From a virus (taxonomy: Duplodnaviria; Heunggongvirae; Uroviricota; Caudoviricetes): a stretch of DNA of 10,218 nucleotides. The notes under the pieces are model-generated. The model saw nothing but the letters and a program-made list of their open reading frames with translations, searched no databases and had not been told where the DNA came from. Shown piece by piece: positions 1-10,218 of this stretch. Position numbers and translations under genes: made by a program. Position 1 is the stretch's first letter; the number at the start of each line of letters is the position of its first letter. The DNA lies in the IMG/VR virus record IMGVR_UViG_2548876953_000015, one strand, 5' to 3'.

Positions 1-622
1 TTGTCTGGGGACATTTTAGAATGGTTCAAAGGGGACATTACAGCTTGGTGTTAACAATAGCCTGCTTCTCCTTGCCTTTCGGCACGTAAGAGGCTAACCT
101 ACATATGTCTAGCATGAAATTGGCCTCAGATTAATGTTAAGCGTCTTGCAGGACGCGTAATGTTAACTGGGGCTTTTCTCTATCTGCCGTTGGTGTTCAT
201 GCCCGAGGCAGATAGCCTCAAGCACCCGCAGCCATTCTACTTAACTACCGTTACCTCGCCAATGTGAAATCAGTCAGAAAGGCGATCCATAAGAACAATA
301 GCAAGACAATAAATCGCCATTACAGCCGTAATAGCCAGCGCACATTTGAGAACCAGCACCACAACCTCCTGTATTGGACGTAGACCAGTCCTGATGAATA
401 TGAGGCTGTCTCGTCAGTGATTCAATACAACTATTGGGTATAGTTTCTCTGATTTTTTCTGTGGAAATGGGGCACAACCACTAGTCACCACCAGCACTTC
501 TTTTAATACGCAAAGTCCGACACAAGCTAACCTTCTAGTCCGCTTTGAGCGAAAAACAGCCATAATTTAGTGCCACGTATATAATGATAGAGCTATTCAA
601 GCTAGCAATTCACATGTAAAAA

Positions 623-732: not shown

Positions 733-2520
733 ATGGACGATATTAATATCAGCCTCGACGAACTTAACACTATTGATTTATCCCCCTTAATCCAGAGTAA
801 GCTGCCAGTTACCTGCTTTGATATCACAAAGTATCTTTCTAGCCTAGGTGATGGAAGAGCGGAGATAAGACTGCTAACCCATATTTGCGGTTTTCACTTT
901 CGTCCCGAAAATCCACAGGTACCATTTGGTCCGTGCTTTCAAAGCAGCCAAGGTAGATCTGCAATTCCGGATGACATTAACGGGTTGTCGCTGGAGGTAC
1001 TTTCTCAATTTTGCCCGACGATAGAGCTACCCGAACTTCAAGCTCGTATTGCTGATACACTTTGGGTTCGTAAAATTGGTGGAATCCGTTTTCCTTTGCT
1101 GGCAGTCCGTGCTTATTATGCGTCCAGTATAGCTATTATGACATCGCAAGGGACGTGGGTTAGTGCTTTAGAACGCCTAGAGCGTGCGCTTAGGCTGTGT
1201 TGTTTTTTTCGAAAGCATACTGATTTCAGGGATGAATTTGATCAGCTTTCGGCACATCTACTAGCAGAGTATGAACGTACCAGAGAACAAGGCGATTCAC
1301 CTTATCCGCTGCGACTCCTGCAACTCGATATCGACTGTAAAGTGAGTGAGCCATCTTTTATTGCCCAGGAACTCCTGTTTCTGACAAAAAACTATCTGGC
1401 TCAAAAATTATTTTCATTTGCCGTCGATGCCTGTAAAACCGCAATCCCGATTGCGAATAGGTGCTGTGACAGAGATACACAGTTTGAATTCTGGCGGCTT
1501 CTTGCCGATACACATCTGGAAGAGTCAAAATTCCAAGATGGCGGTATGATTTCGGCAGCCTGCATGCAGAATGCTATTGAAGCACTGGCTAATATTCCAG
1601 GAACCCGAATAGAACGTCTTGCGCTGTATGAAGAAATGCGTGATTACCAAATCGAATCCCGTCACCAGATGTCTATCCTTCAGTCTCCCCCTCAAGATAT
1701 TAGTGAGATTGTCCATCAAGCCAAGAGTCGGGTAGTCGGAAGAGATTTGTTTGATATGGTTTTCAGACTTGCGATGCTGGTCTGTCGGCCAACCAGCATT
1801 GAGAGACTTAAGGCTCAAGCAATAGAACAAAAGGCCAACAGCATAGCTTGGATGTTTGGATCAACACATATTGATCATGAGGGAATGACACTTGCTCGCA
1901 TACCCGCAGGATTGGGGATTGATGATGCAAATGGGGCAGTTATTTGGCCCATAATGATGACGAGAATGCGTATCGACCATGAGTTGGCAGTAGCTGGGCA
2001 AATTATTCCTGCTACAGATGAGATCACAATGAAATATCCAATCTCGGAGGCGTTTTTTCGCGATATGTTCATCAATCATCCCTTCATCCCGTTTGGGCAT
2101 GAAGAGTTTTTCATCAAGGGTATGGTTTGCGGTTTCAATGGAGATTTTATGACGGCATGCCACGTGTTGATTCCCCAGATCGAAAATAGTCTGAGATATG
2201 TGGCTAAAATTAAAGGTGAGGAACCATCGCAGCTTCACGGGGACGGTTCGCAAGAGCGAAATGGACTCAAGGGATTACTAGATAATCCACTGATTATTGA
2301 AGCTTTCGGCGTAGACATAATTGGCAATCTTCAGGCCTTACTGGTAGATAAAATCTATGGTGATTTACGAAATCAACTAGCTCACGGATATGTGCCTGCC
2401 GGTTACTACAATCAACCTCCCTGCATTTTTGCATGGTGGCTTGTATTGCACATTCTAATGAACCCTACGGCGAGATACTGGCAAGCCACTTATGGCCAAG
2501 AGAGTGAGGCTCAGACTTAA
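733..2520 (+). CDS. Hypothetical 595-aa protein; candidate HEPN-like nuclease or abortive-infection cargo (family not recognised)
   Basis: Seen in sequence: uninterrupted 595-codon ORF with ATG at 733 and a good RBS (aaggtga, 5-6 nt spacer). It is convergent with the neighbouring prophage operon and looks AT-richer than the dic genes by eye. Near the C-terminus is D-L-R-N-Q-L-A-H-G (R546 to H551, nt 2368..2385), which matches the R-N-x3-H form of the HEPN Rx4-6H motif. The family assignment is inference; only the ORF itself is secure. Confidence 0.85.
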   Translation: MDDINISLDELNTIDLSPLIQSKLPVTCFDITKYLSSLGDGRAEIRLLTHICGFHFRPENPQVPFGPCFQSSQGRSAIPDDINGLSLEVLSQFCPTIELPELQARIADTLWVRKIGGIRFPLLAVRAYYASSIAIMTSQGTWVSALERLERALRLCCFFRKHTDFRDEFDQLSAHLLAEYERTREQGDSPYPLRLLQLDIDCKVSEPSFIAQELLFLTKNYLAQKLFSFAVDACKTAIPIANRCCDRDTQFEFWRLLADTHLEESKFQDGGMISAACMQNAIEALANIPGTRIERLALYEEMRDYQIESRHQMSILQSPPQDISEIVHQAKSRVVGRDLFDMVFRLAMLVCRPTSIERLKAQAIEQKANSIAWMFGSTHIDHEGMTLARIPAGLGIDDANGAVIWPIMMTRMRIDHELAVAGQIIPATDEITMKYPISEAFFRDMFINHPFIPFGHEEFFIKGMVCGFNGDFMTACHVLIPQIENSLRYVAKIKGEEPSQLHGDGSQERNGLKGLLDNPLIIEAFGVDIIGNLQALLVDKIYGDLRNQLAHGYVPAGYYNQPPCIFAWWLVLHILMNPTARYWQATYGQESEAQT

Positions 2521-4045: not shown

Positions 4046-4063
4046 GGCTTTGTTGAATAAATC
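4046..4063. repeat. IS903-type left terminal inverted repeat (GGCTTTGTTGAATAAATC)
   Basis: Seen in sequence: the 18-bp end sequence at 4046..4063 is the exact reverse complement of 5085..5102. Confidence 0.9.
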
Positions 4064-4122
4064 GAACTTTTGCTGAGTTGAAGGATCAGATCACGTATCT
4101 TCCCGACAACGCAGACCGTTCC

Positions 4123-5046
4123 GTGGCAAAGCAAAAGTTCAAAATCACCAACTGGCCCACCTACAATAAAGCCCTCATCAACCGTGGCTCCATAACTTTC
4201 TGGCTGGATGATGAGGCGATTCAGGCCTGGTATGAGTCAGCAACACCTTCTTCACGAGGCAGACCTCAGCGCTATTCTGACCTTGCCATCACGACTGTGC
4301 TGGTCATTAAACGCGTATTCAGGCTGACCCTGCGCGCTGCGCAGGGCTTTATTGATTCCATTTTTTCTCTGATGAACGTTCCGCTACGCTGCCCGGATTA
4401 CAGCTGTGTCAGCAGGCGGGCAAAGTCGGTTAATGTCAGTTTCAAAACGCCCACCCGGGGTGAAATCGCACACCTGGTAATTGATTCCACCGGGCTGAAG
4501 GTCTTCGGTGAAGGCGAGTGGAAAGTCAAAAAGCATGGCCAGGAACGCCGCCGTATCTGGCGTAAGCTGCATCTCGCCGTTGACAGTAAAACACATGAAA
4601 TCATCTGCGCTGACCTGTCGCTGAACAACGTTACGGACTCAGAGGCCTTCCCCGGGTTAATCCGGCAAACCCACCGGAAAATCAGGTCAGCCGCCGCCGA
4701 TGGCGCTTACGATACCCGGCTATGTCACGATGAACTGCGGCGTAAGAAAATCAGCGCGCTTATCCCTCCCCGAAAAGGTGCGGGTTACTGGCCCGGTGAA
4801 TATGCAGACCGTAACCGTGCAGTGGCTAATCAGCGAATGACCGGGAGTAATGCGCGGTGGAAATGGACAACAGATTACAACCGTCGCTCGATAGCGGAAA
4901 CGGCGATGTACCGGGTAAAACAGCTGTTCGGGGGTTCACTGACACTGCGTGACTACGATGGTCAGGTTGCAGAGGCTATGGCCCTGGTACGAGCGCTGAA
5001 CAAAATGACGAAAGCAGGTATGCCTGAAAGCGTGCGTATTGCCTGA
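4123..5046 (+). CDS. IS903-type transposase (DDE, IS5 family), about 307 aa from a GTG start
   Basis: Seen in sequence: the frame is open from TTG at 4078 to the stop at 5046. The translation (…KFKITNWPTYNKALINRGS…RGRPQRYSDLAITTVLVIKRVFRLTLRAAQGF…) is the IS903 transposase as I recall it. GTG at 4123 gives the 307-aa length I remember for that protein; the exact start is uncertain. Confidence 0.88.
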   Translation: MAKQKFKITNWPTYNKALINRGSITFWLDDEAIQAWYESATPSSRGRPQRYSDLAITTVLVIKRVFRLTLRAAQGFIDSIFSLMNVPLRCPDYSCVSRRAKSVNVSFKTPTRGEIAHLVIDSTGLKVFGEGEWKVKKHGQERRRIWRKLHLAVDSKTHEIICADLSLNNVTDSEAFPGLIRQTHRKIRSAAADGAYDTRLCHDELRRKKISALIPPRKGAGYWPGEYADRNRAVANQRMTGSNARWKWTTDYNRRSIAETAMYRVKQLFGGSLTLRDYDGQVAEAMALVRALNKMTKAGMPESVRIA

Positions 5047-5084
5047 AAACACAACCCGCTACGGGGGAGACTTACCCGAAATCT

Positions 5085-5102
5085 GATTTATTCAACAAAG
5101 CC
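5085..5102. repeat. IS903-type right terminal inverted repeat
   Basis: Seen in sequence: gatttattcaacaaagcc, the reverse complement of the left end. Confidence 0.9.
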
Positions 5103-6005: not shown

Positions 6006-6413
6006 ATGGATACAAGAACCCTAGGCCAGCGAGTTCTGGCGCGACGAAAAGAATTACGCTTAACACAACGAGAAGCTGCGCGCCTCGCTGGAGTTGCTCA
6101 CGTCACAATTTCACAATGGGAAAGAGACGAAACCCAGCCAGTCGGAAAACGATTGTTTGCTTTAGCGGATGCTCTGAAGTGCTCACCTACATGGCTAATG
6201 TTTGGTGACGAAGACAAGGCACCAGTGCCTGCACAAGAACTTCATGTGGAAACAGAGCTAACTCCCAACCACAAAGAATTGATCGAATTATTCGATGCTC
6301 TTCCATCTTCCGAGCAGGAAGCCTTGCTGTCTGAAATGCGCGCAAGAGTAGAAAACTTCAACAAACTCTTCGAAGAAATGCTTAAAGCGCGTAAAAATAA
6401 ATCAATAAAATAA
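6006..6413 (+). CDS. dicA: Prophage repressor DicA (HTH_XRE family, 135 aa)
   Basis: Seen in sequence: 135-aa ORF with an N-terminal helix-turn-helix (…LRLTQREAARLAGVAHVTISQWERDETQP…). The C-terminus …MRARVENFNKLFEEMLKARK… closely resembles K-12 DicA as I recall it, and the length is the same (135 aa). Confidence 0.88.
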   Translation: MDTRTLGQRVLARRKELRLTQREAARLAGVAHVTISQWERDETQPVGKRLFALADALKCSPTWLMFGDEDKAPVPAQELHVETELTPNHKELIELFDALPSSEQEALLSEMRARVENFNKLFEEMLKARKNKSIK

Positions 6414-6580: not shown

Positions 6581-6736
6581 ATGGATACTATCGATCTTGG
6601 CAACAGCGAATCTCTGGTATGTGGCATGTTCCCCAACCAGGACGGCACGTTCACCGCGATGACGTATACCAAAAGCAAAACGTTTAAAACCGAAAATGGT
6701 GCCCGTCGCTGGCTGGAAAGAAACTCAGGTGAGTGA
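6581..6736 (+). CDS. ydfA: YdfA-like small prophage protein (51 aa)
   Basis: Seen in sequence: ATG at 6581 with Shine-Dalgarno gaggt 4 nt upstream; translation MDTIDLGNSESLVCGMFPNQDGTFTAMTYTKSKTFKTENGARRWLERNSGE. It matches Qin-prophage YdfA as I recall it. The track ORF 6527..6736 is an upstream extension without an RBS. Confidence 0.8.
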   Translation: MDTIDLGNSESLVCGMFPNQDGTFTAMTYTKSKTFKTENGARRWLERNSGE

Positions 6737-6737
6737 T

Positions 6738-7313
6738 ATGGATTTCGACACAATCATGGAAAAGGCTTACGAAGAATACTTCGAAGGCCTTGCCGAAGGC
6801 GAAGAAGCTCTCAGCTTCAGTGAGTTTAAACAGGCACTCAGAATAAGAATGTGCTCTCACAATGACGCGGAGCACAAATATGAGAAGCAAAATCAGACCG
6901 CAGAAAATTTTGTTCTGGAACCCGGAGAAACGCTTTTCAAAATTCCCGTTACGTGCCCCATTTGCGGTTTTACATCAGAAGAACTTGACGACTCCTGTAA
7001 CAATCAGGAAACAACCAAGTATGTCGAAGATGATACCGAGTGCGCACGAAGAACGATTATATCCACGAGTCCAAACTCCAGGGCCAATAAATCTCACTTT
7101 GAGAGGGTGATTAATCCACTCCCCCAAACCAATAAAAAAGATGCCGGAGGACAAAAAACCCAATGGAACAACGGGATATCTGTCAAAAAAAGACGTTCCA
7201 TTAAAGACAAACAACGCAGCGCCAACAACTGTAAGCGCTTTATACCAGTAATCAATTTTCATGTTCTTAAGCGGATTTATTGGTGGTTGCGACATTGCTT
7301 AATGAATCCTTAA
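6738..7313 (+). CDS. ydfB-position ORF, open for 191 codons in this window (acidic N-terminus, CPICGF motif); 3' extent uncertain
   Basis: Seen in sequence: ATG at 6738 lies 1 nt after the ydfA stop, with Shine-Dalgarno aggtga upstream (translational coupling). The frame stays open to 7313. The distal half is K/N/R-rich with rare codons (aga, agg, ata, cga) and may not all be coding. Confidence 0.45.
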   Translation: MDFDTIMEKAYEEYFEGLAEGEEALSFSEFKQALRIRMCSHNDAEHKYEKQNQTAENFVLEPGETLFKIPVTCPICGFTSEELDDSCNNQETTKYVEDDTECARRTIISTSPNSRANKSHFERVINPLPQTNKKDAGGQKTQWNNGISVKKRRSIKDKQRSANNCKRFIPVINFHVLKRIYWWLRHCLMNP

Positions 7314-7572: not shown

Positions 7573-7630
7573 TTTCTGGTGACGTTTGGCGGTATCAGTT
7601 TTACTCCGTGACTGCTCTGCCGCCGTTTTT
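7573..7630 (+). ncRNA. dicF: DicF small RNA (Hfq-dependent, ftsZ-targeting)
   Basis: Seen in sequence: tttctggtgacgtttggcggtatcagttttactccgtgactgctctgccgccgttttt matches the DicF sequence as I remember it almost base for base. It ends in a hairpin plus U-tract and sits between the ydfB/C position and dicB as in Qin. The 5' end is approximate (+/- 2 nt). Confidence 0.8.
7588..7630 (+). terminator. Intrinsic terminator forming the DicF 3' end (ggcgg…ccgcc stem followed by TTTTT)
   Basis: Seen in sequence: GC stem arms at 7588..7592 and 7620..7624, U-tract at 7626..7630. Confidence 0.55.
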
Positions 7631-7799
7631 AAAGTGAATTTTGTTATGCGGTGAATGCGGCTAAGCGCACGCGGAACAGTTAAAACCAAAAACAGTGTTA
7701 TGGGTGGATTCTCTGTATCCGACGTTAATTGTTAACTGGTTAACGTCACCTGGAGGCACCAGGCACTGCATCACAAAATTTATTGTTGAGGACGCGATA

Positions 7800-7988
7800 A
7801 TGAAAACGTTATTACCAAACGTTAATACGTCTGAAGGTTGTTTTGAAATTGGTGTCACTATCAGTAACCCTGTATTTACTGAAGATGCCATTAACAAGAG
7901 AAAACAAGAACGGGAGCTATTAAATAAAATATGCATTGTTTCAATGCTGGCTCGTTTACGTCTGATGCCAAAAGGATGTGCACAATGA
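7800..7988 (+). CDS. dicB: Cell-division inhibitor DicB (62 aa)
   Basis: Seen in sequence: ATG at 7800 with Shine-Dalgarno gagga 8 nt upstream; translation MKTLLPNVNTSEGCFEIGVTISNPVFTEDAINKRKQERELLNKICIVSMLARLRLMPKGCAQ matches DicB as I recall it. The track ORF 7695..7988 is an unsupported N-terminal extension. Confidence 0.88.
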   Translation: MKTLLPNVNTSEGCFEIGVTISNPVFTEDAINKRKQERELLNKICIVSMLARLRLMPKGCAQ

Positions 7989-8176
7989 ATTCAGCATTTG
8001 CGCTTGTTCTGACAGTTTTTCTTGTTTCCGGAGTGCCAGTTGATATTGCAGTCAGTGTTCACAGGACAATGCAGGAGTGTATGACTGCAGCAACCGAACA
8101 GAAAATTCCCGGTAACTGTTACCCGGTCGATAAAGTTATTAACCAGGATAATATCGAAATCCCGGCAGGTCTTTAA
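7985..8176 (+). CDS. ydfD: YdfD-like small membrane lysis protein (63 aa)
   Basis: Seen in sequence: ATG at 7985 overlaps the dicB stop (ATGA). Translation MNSAFALVLTVFLVSGVPVDIAVSVHRTMQECMTAATEQKIPGNCYPVDKVINQDNIEIPAGL has an N-terminal hydrophobic helix and matches YdfD of Qin as I recall it. Confidence 0.85.
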   Translation: MNSAFALVLTVFLVSGVPVDIAVSVHRTMQECMTAATEQKIPGNCYPVDKVINQDNIEIPAGL

Positions 8177-8269
8177 AACAGTTCCGTAATAAATATCCGG
8201 TTTCATTCTTATATGCCAGCAATGGCAGGGATTTGTTCATCCTTAAATCTGTCATGAGGTTAAAACAAA

Positions 8270-10218
8270 ATGAGTAAAGTCTTTATTTGCGCCGCTATTC
8301 CTGACGAACTGGCAACAAGGGAAGAAGGCGCTGTGGCTGTAGCCACAGCCATTGAAGCTGGCGACGAACGCCGTGCTCGAGCAAAATTTCACTGGCAATT
8401 CCTGGAACATTATCCGGCTGCTCAGGACTGCGCTTATAAATTTATTGTCTGCGAGGATAAACCTGGCATACCCCGCCCTGCCCTCGATTCATGGGATGCT
8501 GAATATATGCAGGAAAACCGCTGGGATGAGGAGTCTGCTTCTTTTGTCCCGAATGAGACTGAATCCGATCCGATGAACGTCACTTTTGACAAGCTGGCCC
8601 CTGAAGTACAGAACGCTGTCATGGTTAAGTTCGACACATGTGAAAACATCACCGTTGATATGGTGATTAGCGCGCAGGAATTGTTGCAGGAAGACATGGC
8701 AACATTCGACGGACATATCGTTGAAGCGTTGATGAAAATGCCAGAAGTTAACGCCATGTATCCGGAGCTTAAGTTGCACGCCATTGGGTGGGTTAAGCAT
8801 AAATGTATTCCTGGTGCTAAATGGCCCGAAATTCAGGCAGAGATGCGCATCTGGAAAAAACGTCGCGAAGGTGAACGCAAGGAAACCGGAAAATACACGT
8901 CTGTTGTTGATCTCGCACGCGCCAGAGCCAATCAACCGTACACTGAAAATTCAACAGGAAAAATCAGCCCGGTCATTGCTGCCATTCATCGCGAATACAA
9001 GCAGACATGGAAAACACTGGATGACGAACTGGCCTACGCTCTCTGGCCTGGTGATGTGGATGCCGGAAACATTGACGGCAGCATCCATCGCTGGGCAAAA
9101 AATGAAGTTATCGACAACGACCGCGAAGACTGGAAGCGTATCTCGGCATCAATGCGCAAACAGCCTGATGCCCTTCGCTACGACCGCCAGACTATTTTTG
9201 GCCTTGTCCGTGAGCGTCCGATCGACATTCACAAAGATCCCGTAGCACTGAACAAATATATCTGCGAATACCTGACGACAAAGGGCGTGTTTGAGAATGA
9301 AGAAACAGACCTGGGCACTGTTGATGTTCTCCAGTCATCAGAAACACAAACTGATGCAGTGGAAACTGAGGTATCTGATATCCCAAAAAATGAAACCGCG
9401 CCGGAAGCTGAACCATCTGTAGAGCGTGAGGGGCCGTTCTATTTCCTCTTCGCAGATAAGGACGGAGAAAAATACGGTCGCGCAAACAAACTTTCTGGTC
9501 TGGATAAGGCACTGGCTGCTGGCGCCACTGAAATCACAAAAGAAGAATATTTTGCCCGAAAAAATGGCACATACACGGGCTTACCGCAAAATGTAGATAC
9601 CGCTGAAGATTCAGAACAACCAGAGCCGATAAAAGTTACCGCTGACGAAGTAAACAAAATTATGCAGGCAGCCAATATCAGCCAGCCTGACGCTGATAAG
9701 TTGCTTGCTGCATCACGTGGTGAATTTGTTGAAGGGATTAGTGACCCGAATGATCCGAAATGGGTTAAGGGGATCCAGACCCGCGATTCTGTGAACCAGA
9801 ACCAGCATGAATCGGAACGGAACTACCAAAAAGCGGAACAAAACAGTCCAAATGCGTTACAAAACGAGCCAGTAACGAAACAGCCTGAACCAGTAGCGCA
9901 ACAGGAAGTGGAAAAAGTCTGCACCGCCTGCGGTCAGACCGGCGGCGGCAACTGCCCTGATTGTGGCGCGGTGATGGGCGACGCAACATACCAGGAAACA
10001 TTCGATGAAGAGTATCAGGTTGAAGTTCAGGAAGATGATCCGGAGGAAATGCAAGGCGCTGAACATCCACACAAGGAGAACACTGGCGGCAATCAGCATC
10101 ACAATAGCGATAATGAAACTGGCGAGACGGCAGATCACCCAATTAAGGTGAACGGTCATCACGAAATCACATCCACCAGCAGGACGTGTGACCATCTAAT
10201 GATCGACCTTGAAACCAT
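8270..10218 (+). CDS. Large ydfE-position prophage protein, at least 649 aa, 3' end beyond the window
   Basis: Seen in sequence: ATG at 8270 with Shine-Dalgarno tgaggt 9 nt upstream, 94 bp after ydfD. I translated it line by line and found no stop through 10218; it is missing from the ORF track only because it has no stop in the window. It contains a CxxC-x7-CxxC knuckle (CTACGQTGGGNCPDC, nt 9920..9964) and an acidic, His-rich tail. Function unknown. Confidence 0.8.
   Translation, partial: MSKVFICAAIPDELATREEGAVAVATAIEAGDERRARAKFHWQFLEHYPAAQDCAYKFIVCEDKPGIPRPALDSWDAEYMQENRWDEESASFVPNETESDPMNVTFDKLAPEVQNAVMVKFDTCENITVDMVISAQELLQEDMATFDGHIVEALMKMPEVNAMYPELKLHAIGWVKHKCIPGAKWPEIQAEMRIWKKRREGERKETGKYTSVVDLARARANQPYTENSTGKISPVIAAIHREYKQTWKTLDDELAYALWPGDVDAGNIDGSIHRWAKNEVIDNDREDWKRISASMRKQPDALRYDRQTIFGLVRERPIDIHKDPVALNKYICEYLTTKGVFENEETDLGTVDVLQSSETQTDAVETEVSDIPKNETAPEAEPSVEREGPFYFLFADKDGEKYGRANKLSGLDKALAAGATEITKEEYFARKNGTYTGLPQNVDTAEDSEQPEPIKVTADEVNKIMQAANISQPDADKLLAASRGEFVEGISDPNDPKWVKGIQTRDSVNQNQHESERNYQKAEQNSPNALQNEPVTKQPEPVAQQEVEKVCTACGQTGGGNCPDCGAVMGDATYQETFDEEYQVEVQEDDPEEMQGAEHPHKENTGGNQHHNSDNETGETADHPIKVNGHHEITSTSRTCDHLMIDLET

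What the first reader, a model, noticed from the sequence alone, without database searches (positions are those of the whole stretch)
8270..10218. Large ydfE-position protein (at least 649 aa) is intact here, with a CxxC-x7-CxxC zinc knuckle and an acidic, His-rich tail
Downstream of ydfD an uninterrupted ORF runs off the window end; it is absent from the ORF track only because it has no stop. As I recall, the K-12 counterpart (ydfE) is an IS-disrupted pseudogene, so the full-length protein is essentially unstudied. Notable features are a Cys4 knuckle at nt 9920..9964 and a very acidic C-terminal region rich in His (…HPHKENTGGNQHHNSD…HH…). It sits where lambdoid phages carry early-left recombination or host-takeover genes.
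Basis: partly seen in the sequence, partly recalled or inferred. Interest (0 to 1): 0.5.

Follow-up and report, generated by a model that had tools for sequence, protein, structure and literature searches.

The report
Prophage exonuclease gene cut by window
The open reading frame is the first 79% of a common, already annotated 823-residue prophage gene that joins a RecE-like scaffold to a 3'-to-5' DNA exonuclease domain, so the zinc knuckle and acidic 'tail' are an internal linker shared with RecE, not a new kind of protein.

Summary
An ATG at 8270 opens 649 stop-free codons to the window end, with CTACGQTGGGNCPDC at nt 9920-9964 and an acidic, His-rich stretch after it. K-12 ydfE is the IS2-truncated first 256 codons of this gene (99% identical).

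The interpretation needs correcting.
- **The gene is cut by the window.** In 99.8%-identical genomes it runs 174 more codons, giving an 823-aa protein (WP_000048304.1, 'exonuclease').
- **The last window residues begin a nuclease domain.** '...MIDLET' is the Exo I motif of a C-terminal DexA/Rv2179c-like DEDDh 3'-5' exonuclease domain (Pfam E 2e-67).
- **The acidic 'tail' is a linker.** It is predicted to be disordered and evolves almost neutrally.
- **Residues 262-627 are homologous to the non-catalytic part of Rac RecE.** The Cys4 and acidic segment is nearly the same as in RecE.
- **The scaffold carries different nucleases.** Relatives have either the DEDDh domain (no recT next door) or the RecE PD-(D/E)XK domain (followed by recT).

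At least 80% of the window part of the gene is present in 3489 of 5426 complete E. coli genomes, and the gene occurs in viable phages. Pfam has YdfE_N and YdfE_C families. Two 2025 papers already list such nucleases. No biochemical study of the full-length protein was found.

The parts
8270..10218 (+). First 649 codons (79%) of a 2472-nt, 823-codon prophage exonuclease gene; the stop lies about 520 nt beyond the window end
   Evidence: The region is 99.8% identical to NZ_CP074760 CDS WP_000048304.1 'exonuclease'.
8270..9304 (+). YdfE_N region (aa 1-345): three confidently predicted small subdomains (aa 1-96 alpha/beta, 105-205 helical, 245-345 helical). Aa 1-256 is all that K-12 keeps; aa 262-345 is shared with RecE 278-360.
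9305..9424 (+). Acidic linker, aa 346-385; evolves almost neutrally
   Evidence: 28% Asp/Glu in aa 346-388. 50% identity and dN/dS 0.75 against the phage Evi allele.
9425..9589 (+). Small alpha/beta domain, aa 386-440 (GPFYF...GRANK...EI..EEY), conserved across the family but absent from K-12 RecE
   Evidence: pLDDT 84-95. dN/dS 0.08. Alignment A3 and module map.
9677..9784 (+). Most conserved peptide of the central region, aa 470-505 (LAAsRGEFVEGISDPNDPKW); shared with RecE and with relatives carrying either nuclease type
   Evidence: Alignment A3 consensus. dN/dS 0.07. RecE alignment.
9785..9913 (+). Gln/Asn/Glu-rich predicted disordered spacer, aa 506-548
   Evidence: 32% Gln/Asn in aa 506-549. 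pLDDT below 50.
9920..9964 (+). Cys4 zinc-ribbon-like knuckle CxxC-x7-CxxC, aa 551-565. Also present in RecE (CNACGQTGGDNCPDC). The four Cys are invariant wherever the module exists, but the module is missing from many relatives.
   Evidence: pLDDT 57-72 with two short strands. Chance estimate 2e-4.
9980..10192 (+). Acidic, His-rich predicted disordered linker, aa 571-641; near-identical in RecE aa 538-592. Site of the crossovers that exchange nuclease domains.
   Evidence: pLDDT about 40. dN/dS 0.80. RecE alignment. Hybrid proteins P0001 and P0010 have different crossover points.
10193..10218 (+). Start of the DEDDh 3'-5' exonuclease domain (aa 642-813 in the full protein). The Exo I motif D646-x-E648 ('MIDLET') is the last thing in the window.
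   Evidence: Pfam PF16473 E 2.2e-67 over aa 642-813. D646, E648, D746, H796 and D801 align with T4 DexA D7, E9, D119, H186 and D191. The best structural match is DexA 8KEL.
7574..8176 (+). Upstream genes of the same early-left operon: DicF RNA (7574-7625), dicB (7800-7988), ydfD (7985-8176)
   Evidence: Rfam RF00039 at 72.5 bits. Pfam DicB and DUF1482. Same gene order in DEC9B, K-12 and phage HannyBb.

Best explanation
The ORF is the 5' part of a lambdoid-phage early-left (PL/DicA-controlled) gene for a modular 823-aa nuclease. It has a RecE-type non-catalytic scaffold of about 640 aa, made of three small N-terminal subdomains, a small alpha/beta domain, a conserved RGEFVEGISDPNDPKW peptide, a Cys4 zinc ribbon and disordered acidic spacers. 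This scaffold is tethered by a flexible acidic, His-rich linker to a C-terminal DexA-like DEDDh exonuclease. That exonuclease would remove nucleotides from free 3' ends of DNA by two-metal catalysis (D646, E648, D746, H796, D801). The architecture, the homologies, the conservation pattern, and the exchange of DEDDh and RecE-type PD-(D/E)XK domains on the same scaffold at the conserved Cys4/acidic segment are all shown here. The rest is inferred. After prophage induction or infection the protein is probably made with DicF, DicB and YdfD. It probably acts on linear DNA ends during lytic DNA metabolism, trimming or destroying 3' tails and scavenging broken DNA as T4 DexA does. It is unlikely to generate 3' tails for annealing as RecE does, which fits the absence of a recT partner. 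The scaffold probably provides targeting or oligomerisation that does not depend on nuclease polarity. The Cys4 knuckle probably binds zinc as a small structural or DNA/protein-contact element.
For: Full-length sequence and gene order. DEDDh domain: Pfam E 2e-67; catalytic residues aligned to DexA; best fold match is DexA 8KEL, then RNase T and oligoribonuclease. RecE homology over aa 262-627: BLASTP E 1e-60 and NCBIfam PRK09709 positions 271-600, E 2e-82. Domain exchange: the same about 630-aa scaffold at 97% identity is fused to PF12684 in P0001-P0010, followed there by recT; RecE_N plus DEDDh occurs in P0128; crossover points differ between P0001 and P0010; recE and this gene share 442 nt at 78% identity. 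Order and disorder: AlphaFold2. Selection: dN/dS 0.07-0.16 in folded modules and 0.75-1.0 in linkers. Prevalence and presence in viable phages (HannyBb, Evi, mEp460_ev081). [quoted passage not shown]
Against: No activity, substrate (DNA or RNA) or phenotype has been measured for this protein. Pfam and NCBI name the domain an exoribonuclease, after Rv2179c. Identity to DexA is only 28%. The scaffold has no fold match that indicates a function. The Cys4 module is missing from many relatives, so it cannot be essential to the family. The dN/dS values come from a single allele pair. In this window the prophage's O-like replication gene is split by an IS, so the gene may not be expressed in a lytic cycle here.
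Confidence: 0.6

Rival explanations
1. It is an anti-phage exclusion nuclease of the 'HREX' type. Like the E. coli DexA homologue EcD, the DEDDh domain would spare unmodified host DNA and degrade 5hmC-modified DNA of superinfecting T-even phages, so the prophage protects its host.
For: Kang et al. 2025 (PMC12153337) showed that EcD cuts 5hmC DNA only and blocks T4. Their census of DexA homologues contains members of this family: WP_089627656.1 (823 aa), WP_171937808.1 (826 aa) and phage Evi VUF53858.1. Other products of the same operon (DicB) are known to affect phage infection (my knowledge, not checked here). The window also carries a PDC-S39 defence candidate.
Against: EcD is a different, stand-alone protein that starts MIDTET, and no such variant occurs among 377 family sequences. 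The DexA residues assigned to 5hmC recognition are not kept: W152 aligns with Tyr766 and D169 with Ala785. Asp90, whose loss defines the EcD-like state, is retained as Asp718. The gene sits in the repressed early-left operon next to xis and int, not in a lysogen-expressed moron position.
Confidence: 0.15
2. It is a recombination exonuclease equivalent to RecE. It would prepare DNA ends for homologous recombination of phage DNA, using host functions (RecA, or RecBCD and Chi) in place of a phage annealing protein.
For: It occupies the same position as recE, just upstream of xis and int. It shares about 365 aa of scaffold with RecE. Older annotations call it exodeoxyribonuclease VIII.
Against: The nuclease has the opposite polarity (DEDDh 3'-5') and the PD-(D/E)XK domain is absent. 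No recT, bet or erf gene lies in the operon of DEC9B, HannyBb or this window. recT does follow the PD-(D/E)XK variant. DnaQ-type 3'-5' nucleases usually inhibit recombination (PMC12315714), and loss of host ExoI enhances RecET assembly (title of PMC13048471).
Confidence: 0.12
3. It is an exoribonuclease, as NCBI and Pfam name the domain. It would trim or degrade RNA 3' ends during phage development, for example host RNAs or the polycistronic dicF-dicB transcript.
For: The best Pfam family is 'Rv2179c-like 3'-5' exoribonuclease'. Fold neighbours include RNase T, oligoribonuclease and REXO2. The gene is in the same operon as the DicF sRNA.
Against: The closest solved relative by both sequence and fold is the DNA exonuclease DexA. 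The scaffold is shared with a dsDNA exonuclease (RecE). Many DEDDh enzymes act on both nucleic acids, so the family name does not decide the substrate.
Confidence: 0.08

Closest known systems
E. coli K-12 ydfE (b1577, Qin prophage pseudogene); Pfam YdfE_N (PF27430) and YdfE_C (PF27432)
   Same: Aa 1-256 are 99% identical. Same position after dicB and ydfD. Near-identical full-length proteins carry both Pfam families.
   Different: K-12 keeps only the first 256 codons, because IS2E and a deletion removed the rest. Here the gene is intact at least to codon 649, and in 99.8%-identical genomes to codon 823.
RecE (exonuclease VIII) of the Rac prophage
   Same: The central 330-365 aa are homologous, and the stretch from the RGEFVxGISDPNDPKW peptide through the Cys4 knuckle and acidic His-rich segment is nearly the same. 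The position upstream of xis and int is the same, and so is the layout of a long non-catalytic region in front of a C-terminal nuclease.
   Different: The first 260 aa are unrelated to RecE's Exonuc_VIII domain. The nuclease is a DEDDh 3'-5' domain instead of the PD-(D/E)XK 5'-3' domain. There is no recT partner. It scores 278 bits against an NCBIfam cutoff of 1269.
Phage T4 DexA (PDB 8KEL/8KEN) and its E. coli homologue EcD ('HREX', Kang et al. 2025)
   Same: The C-terminal domain has the same DEDDh fold and the same five catalytic residues. DexA is the best match by sequence (E 1e-6 against PDB) and by fold. Family members are already listed as DexA homologues in that paper's Table S3.
   Different: Identity is 28%. 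DexA's extra loops are missing. The W152 and D169 equivalents are not conserved. The domain is fused to a 640-aa scaffold, whereas DexA and EcD are about 200-aa stand-alone proteins.
DnaQ-type nuclease genes and 'RecE-2' proteins of lambdoid early-left operons (Genome Res 2025, PMC12315714)
   Same: [quoted passage not shown] It also reports RecE relatives without a recognisable nuclease domain. Both match what I see in this family.
   Different: I could not confirm from the text that this exact protein is in their panel, because the supplementary tables are not held. The paper does not describe the shared scaffold or the domain exchange.

Membership tests
YdfE family (Pfam YdfE_N PF27430 + YdfE_C PF27432; K-12 ydfE) | N-terminus orthologous to K-12 ydfE | tested here: met
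   254 of 256 residues identical; same flanking genes dicB and ydfD.
YdfE family (Pfam YdfE_N PF27430 + YdfE_C PF27432; K-12 ydfE) | Match to the two Pfam models | tested here: inconclusive
   The local Pfam copy lacks these models. Precomputed hits exist for every listed homologue at 86-97% identity, so membership is very likely but was not scored on this sequence.
DEDDh (DnaQ-like) 3'-5' exonucleases, Rv2179c/DexA-like (PF16473) | Exo I motif D-x-E | tested here: met
   D646-L-E648 in 'MIDLET', the last residues encoded in the window.
DEDDh (DnaQ-like) 3'-5' exonucleases, Rv2179c/DexA-like (PF16473) | Exo II Asp, Exo III H-x4-D, and a full domain match above the Pfam threshold | tested here: met
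   D746, H796 and D801; PF16473 at 226.6 bits against a cutoff of 27. Measured on the full-length 99.8%-identical gene L001; this part lies outside the window.
DEDDh (DnaQ-like) 3'-5' exonucleases, Rv2179c/DexA-like (PF16473) | 3'-5' exonuclease activity, and substrate (DNA or RNA) | not testable with these tools
   This needs biochemistry.
RecE / exodeoxyribonuclease VIII (NCBIfam PRK09709 equivalog) | C-terminal PD-(D/E)XK nuclease domain (PF12684) | tested here: not met
   No PF12684 hit; a DEDDh domain is there instead. The BLASTP alignment to RecE stops at RecE residue 592.
RecE / exodeoxyribonuclease VIII (NCBIfam PRK09709 equivalog) | Whole-protein score above the equivalog cutoff, and the N-terminal Exonuc_VIII domain (PF06630) | tested here: not met
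   277.6 bits against a cutoff of 1269, covering only model positions 271-600. No PF06630 hit.
RecE / exodeoxyribonuclease VIII (NCBIfam PRK09709 equivalog) | Adjacent recT annealing-protein gene | tested here: not met
   The gene is followed directly by xis and int in DEC9B, HannyBb and PPompW. recT follows only the PD-(D/E)XK variant.
HREX exonucleases (T4 DexA / E. coli EcD) | Residues assigned to 5hmC recognition (DexA W152, D169), and loss of the tetramer residue D90 in the defence form | tested here: not met
   These positions align with Tyr766, Ala785 and Asp718. The alignment is at 28% identity, so the D169 position is uncertain.
HREX exonucleases (T4 DexA / E. coli EcD) | Selective degradation of 5hmC DNA and protection from T4 | not testable with these tools
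   This needs nuclease assays and plaque assays.
Cys4 zinc ribbon / knuckle | Four Cys in a CxxC-xn-CxxC arrangement, invariant among homologues that carry the module | tested here: met
   All four Cys are kept in RecE and in the six representative sequences that carry the motif (P0009, P0128, P0133, P0134, P0160, P0237), which are 48-84% identical in the region aligned in A3. The model shows two short strands at moderate confidence.
Cys4 zinc ribbon / knuckle | Zinc binding | not testable with these tools
   This needs metal analysis of purified protein.

The most novel reading that the evidence does not exclude
The roughly 600-aa RecE/YdfE scaffold may be a nuclease-agnostic delivery platform. 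Its conserved peptide (RGEFVEGISDPNDPKW), small domains and zinc ribbon would dock onto a host or phage DNA-end or replisome factor. The acidic, His-rich linker would act as a flexible or autoinhibitory tether. Phages would then plug in nucleases of opposite polarity, or none at all, to switch between promoting end resection (RecE type, with RecT) and destroying 3' tails (DEDDh type). The second mode could suppress recombination or replication of competitors or of the host. If so, the long-unexplained N-terminal two-thirds of RecE could be studied through these natural domain swaps.
Probability: 0.2. Interest if true: 0.6.

Novelty: already known. Interest (0 to 1): 0.25.

Why it matters
As it stands this corrects an annotation. 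The window cuts a very common prophage gene just where its catalytic domain begins, so a linker looked like a tail. The gene still has some value. It shows that the non-catalytic two-thirds of RecE, a standard recombineering protein whose N-terminal region is still described as of unknown function, is a mobile scaffold that nature combines with nucleases of opposite polarity. The protein is present in about two-thirds of complete E. coli genomes but not in K-12, which may be one reason it has not been studied. Comparing the DEDDh and PD-(D/E)XK versions on the same scaffold could show what the scaffold does. It could also show whether DnaQ-type nucleases in phages without recombination modules help or hinder recombination.

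Tried and rejected
- **Recovering the EcD gene from its primer sequences.** A 23-mer found nothing in IMG/VR. A 20-mer gave one chance match on an unrelated contig. The gene was probably synthetic or is not in that collection, so a direct comparison of EcD with this domain was not possible. EcD starts MIDTET, which no family member does.
- **PADLOC.** The only hit was a weak generic DEDDh model (E 1.7e-5), which gives no support for a known defence system.
- **Chi-site enrichment.** This was meant to link the phage to the 'no Rec module, RecBCD-dependent' class. The window has no Chi on the + strand and two on the - strand, and whole phage genomes were not analysed, so the result is uninformative.
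- **Pfam scan of ten relatives with unassigned C-terminal regions of about 300 aa.** No domain was found. This is consistent with the published 'RecE-2' proteins that lack a nuclease.
- **One literature search was wasted.** 'RecE' matched 'receptor'.
- **The idea that the gene might be a decaying pseudogene was rejected.** The frame is intact, the folded modules have dN/dS of 0.07-0.16, and the gene occurs in plaque-forming phages.
Full report
**Observation**

The region was read and translated. An ATG at 8270 follows an in-frame stop at 8261 and a GAGG ten bases upstream. It opens 649 codons that reach the window end without a stop. With 11 cysteines in 649 residues, such a CxxC-x(5-12)-CxxC arrangement appears in 39 of 200,000 random placements. 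Residues 571-641 are 27% Asp/Glu and 10% His, with a net charge of -16. The description of the sequence is correct.

**What the ORF belongs to**

A megablast of the region against 5426 complete E. coli genomes found a copy covering at least 80% of it in 3489 genomes, many at 99.7-99.8% identity. All are annotated 'exonuclease' or '3'-5' exonuclease'.

In strain DEC9B the gene continues for 174 more codons, giving an 823-aa protein, WP_000048304.1. It lies between dicB-ydfD and xis-int of a Qin-like prophage next to rspB. The window therefore cuts the gene at 79% of its length.

The last residues encoded in the window...CDHLMIDLET, are the start of a Pfam Rv2179c-like DEDDh exonuclease domain (aa 642-813, E 2.2e-67). 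D646 and E648 form the Exo I motif. D746, H796 and D801 complete the DEDDh set and align with T4 DexA D7, E9, D119, H186 and D191.

**The K-12 counterpart**

The ydfE pseudogene (b1577) matches aa 1-256 with 254 of 256 residues identical, and IS2E then interrupts it.

**Relation to RecE**

NCBIfam's exonuclease VIII model matches aa 246-623 at model positions 271-600 (E 2e-82). This is far below the equivalog cutoff.

A direct comparison with K-12 RecE aligns aa 262-627 with RecE 278-592. Identity is 39% overall. From the RGEFVxGISDPNDPKW peptide through the Cys4 knuckle (RecE: CNACGQTGGDNCPDC) and the acidic His-rich segment, the two sequences are nearly the same. The alignment ends just before the structurally defined RecE nuclease domain.

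It sits immediately in front of the catalytic domain in both proteins.

**Modular architecture and domain exchange**

A search of 5.8 billion proteins returned about 8000 relatives. All 120 listed carry the Pfam families PF27430 and PF27432, which a context look-up names YdfE_N and YdfE_C.

- Most have PF16473, the DEDDh domain; one 90% cluster alone has 23,183 members.
- Proteins P0001-P0010 (900 aa) are 97% identical to the window protein over about 630 aa and then switch to PF12684, the RecE-type PD-(D/E)XK domain.
- The switch point differs between P0001 and P0010, which indicates independent crossovers inside the acidic segment.
- In the contig carrying P0010 the hybrid gene is followed by recT, ralR, xisR, intR and ttcA. 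This is a Qin left arm joined to a Rac right arm.
- recE and this gene share 442 nt at 78% identity, with an exact run of 45 nt.
- Only 8 of 5426 complete genomes hold such a YdfE-N::PD-(D/E)XK gene.

An exhaustive HMMER scan of 1.84 billion representative proteins found only 247 clusters, so the family is narrow. Mapping modules onto the longer representatives shows all four combinations of N-terminal type (YdfE or RecE Exonuc_VIII) and nuclease type (DEDDh or PD-(D/E)XK). It also shows a longer PF12684 variant, and proteins with about 300 C-terminal residues that hit no Pfam domain.

The Cys4 knuckle occurs in only a subset of relatives. Others have a GxGxFS[IV][ED]GL[ML] motif at that place.

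**Structure predictions**

Residues 1-350 were modelled with 15 diverse sequences. The model has a mean pLDDT of 84.8 but a pTM of 0.36. This means three confident small subdomains (1-96, 105-205, 245-345) without a fixed mutual arrangement. No informative fold match was found:

- Foldseek against BFVD: E above 0.1.
- PDB sequence or profile searches: no meaningful hit.

Residues 380-823 gave the following:

| Residues | Prediction |
|---|---|
| 386-440 | Confident small alpha/beta domain |
| Around the conserved peptide | Moderately confident helices |
| 501-545 | Disordered (pLDDT below 50) |
| Cys4 region | pLDDT 57-72, two short strands |
| 579-636 (the acidic His-rich stretch) | Disordered (pLDDT about 40) |
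| 642-819 | Well-folded DEDDh domain |

The best structural match of the DEDDh domain is T4 DexA (8KEL), followed by RNase T and oligoribonucleases.

**Selection**

I compared the window-type allele with the phage Evi allele (84% identical in protein) by the Nei-Gojobori method.

| Region | dN/dS |
|---|---|
| N1 (aa 1-260) | 0.11 |
| N2 (aa 261-345) | 0.14 |
| Small domain (aa 386-440) | 0.08 |
| Conserved peptide (aa 470-505) | 0.07 |
| DEDDh (aa 642-823) | 0.16 |
| Linker (aa 346-385) | 0.75 |
| Linker (aa 441-469) | 1.0 |
| Acidic His-rich segment (aa 571-641) | 0.80 |

The folded modules are under purifying selection and the linkers evolve almost neutrally. This fits a linker kept for its composition rather than its sequence.

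dS ranges from 0.07 (Cys4) to 1.06 (DEDDh) along the gene, which is the mark of a mosaic history. This is a single pair of alleles and should be read as indicative only.

**Biological context**

The gene is the last one of the early-left operon before xis and int. In the window the order is the dicA-like repressor gene (6006-6413), DicF RNA (7574-7625, Rfam 72.5 bits), dicB, ydfD and then this gene. The 93-nt gap before it holds no convincing promoter or terminator beyond chance.

The same arrangement occurs in the isolated phage HannyBb (99.2% protein identity). The gene itself also occurs in phages PhiR42_1, Evi and mEp460_ev081 and in PPompW prophages. No annealing protein (RecT, Bet or Erf) is encoded in these operons.

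**Literature**

No functional study of ydfE turned up. Two 2025 papers bear on the gene.

Kang et al. (NAR, PMC12153337) solved T4 DexA. They showed that a stand-alone E. coli homologue, EcD, degrades only 5hmC DNA and protects against T4 ('HREX').
- Their Table S3 of DexA homologues contains WP_089627656.1 and WP_171937808.1. I matched these to 823- and 826-aa members of this family. It also contains the phage Evi protein VUF53858.1.
- The paper never mentions prophages or the 640-aa extension.
- It notes that K-12 lacks DexA homologues, which the IS2 truncation explains.
- EcD itself starts MIDTET and is not a member of this family.
- The residues assigned to 5hmC recognition are not conserved here: W152 aligns with Tyr766 and D169 with Ala785. 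Asp90 is retained as Asp718.

[quoted passage not shown] It remarks that such nucleases usually inhibit recombination. It also reports 'RecE-2' proteins without a nuclease domain.

**Most likely mechanism**

The protein is a phage early modular nuclease. A RecE-type scaffold is tethered by a flexible acidic linker to a DexA-like two-metal 3'-5' exonuclease.

I consider it most likely (about 0.6) that it acts on DNA 3' ends during lytic DNA metabolism, trimming or destroying 3' tails or scavenging broken DNA. It would not create 3' tails for annealing as RecE does. The reversed polarity and the lack of a recT partner fit this, whereas recT does accompany the PD-(D/E)XK version on the same scaffold.

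The scaffold's role (targeting, oligomerisation or partner binding) and the zinc binding of the Cys4 knuckle are inferences.

The rivals are:
- an HREX-like exclusion nuclease (0.15);
- a true RecE-like recombination function that uses host partners (0.12);
- an RNase (0.08).

**Verdict**

The finding is real but ordinary in kind. It is a very common gene, already annotated and already given Pfam families, that the window truncates. The 'zinc knuckle and acidic tail' is the RecE-type pre-nuclease linker.

The residual interest lies in the natural exchange of nucleases of opposite polarity on a scaffold whose function is still unknown, and in the complete lack of biochemistry on the full-length protein.

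Noticed in passing
window 4046-5102: A 1057-bp IS903-type insertion sequence. It has 33-nt terminal inverted repeats (GGCTTTGTTGAATAAATC...) and a DDE transposase ORF at 4078-5046. It splits the O-like replication initiation gene on the minus strand. It is absent from the otherwise collinear DEC9B prophage and from phage HannyBb, so this prophage copy is probably replication-defective.
   Followed up: partly
window 733-2520 (+): A 595-aa DUF7380 + DUF4209 protein matches the PADLOC candidate defence family PDC-S39 (E 2e-102). It sits between the hok/sok locus and the replication genes, where K-12 Qin carries relBE-ydfV-flxA instead.
   Followed up: partly
window 7574-7625 (+) and 56-227 (-): [quoted passage not shown]
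   Followed up: no
L004 8001-10703 (GCA_902847425.1 contig CADHHL010000186): A 900-aa hybrid ORF (YdfE scaffold plus RecE nuclease) joins the left arm of a Qin-like prophage (rem, hokD, relBE, flxA, dicB, ydfD) to the right arm of Rac (recT, ralR, xisR, intR, ttcA, dbpA). This is what recombination between the two oppositely oriented prophages across the replication terminus would give. Crossover points differ between P0001 and P0010. Only 8 of 5426 complete genomes have a gene of this architecture.
   Followed up: partly
alignment A3, columns about 150-175 (relatives from the representative search, e.g. P0228, P0139, P0136): Family members that lack the Cys4 knuckle carry a conserved GxGxFS[IV][ED]GL[ML] peptide at the equivalent position. 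It may be an alternative short interaction motif.
   Followed up: no
P0126, P0129, P0135, P0136, P0152, P0171, P0187, P0190 (C-terminal about 300 aa): Relatives with the YdfE-type N-terminus have long C-terminal regions with no Pfam hit at all. They probably correspond to the 'RecE-2' proteins without a nuclease domain mentioned in PMC12315714.
   Followed up: partly
window 6696-7313 (+): A 205-aa ORF lies in the early-left operon between the repressor gene and DicF. It has no Pfam match and matches only a PHROG of unknown function (phrog_35040). It is also present in phage HannyBb. It covers the position where K-12 has ydfA, ydfB and ydfC.
   Followed up: no
L009 2101-4568 (PPompW_EH1846): In the PPompW prophages of EHEC O26-type strains, the orthologous exonuclease gene is annotated as frameshifted by a deletion. 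The gene is therefore not intact in every lineage.
   Followed up: no
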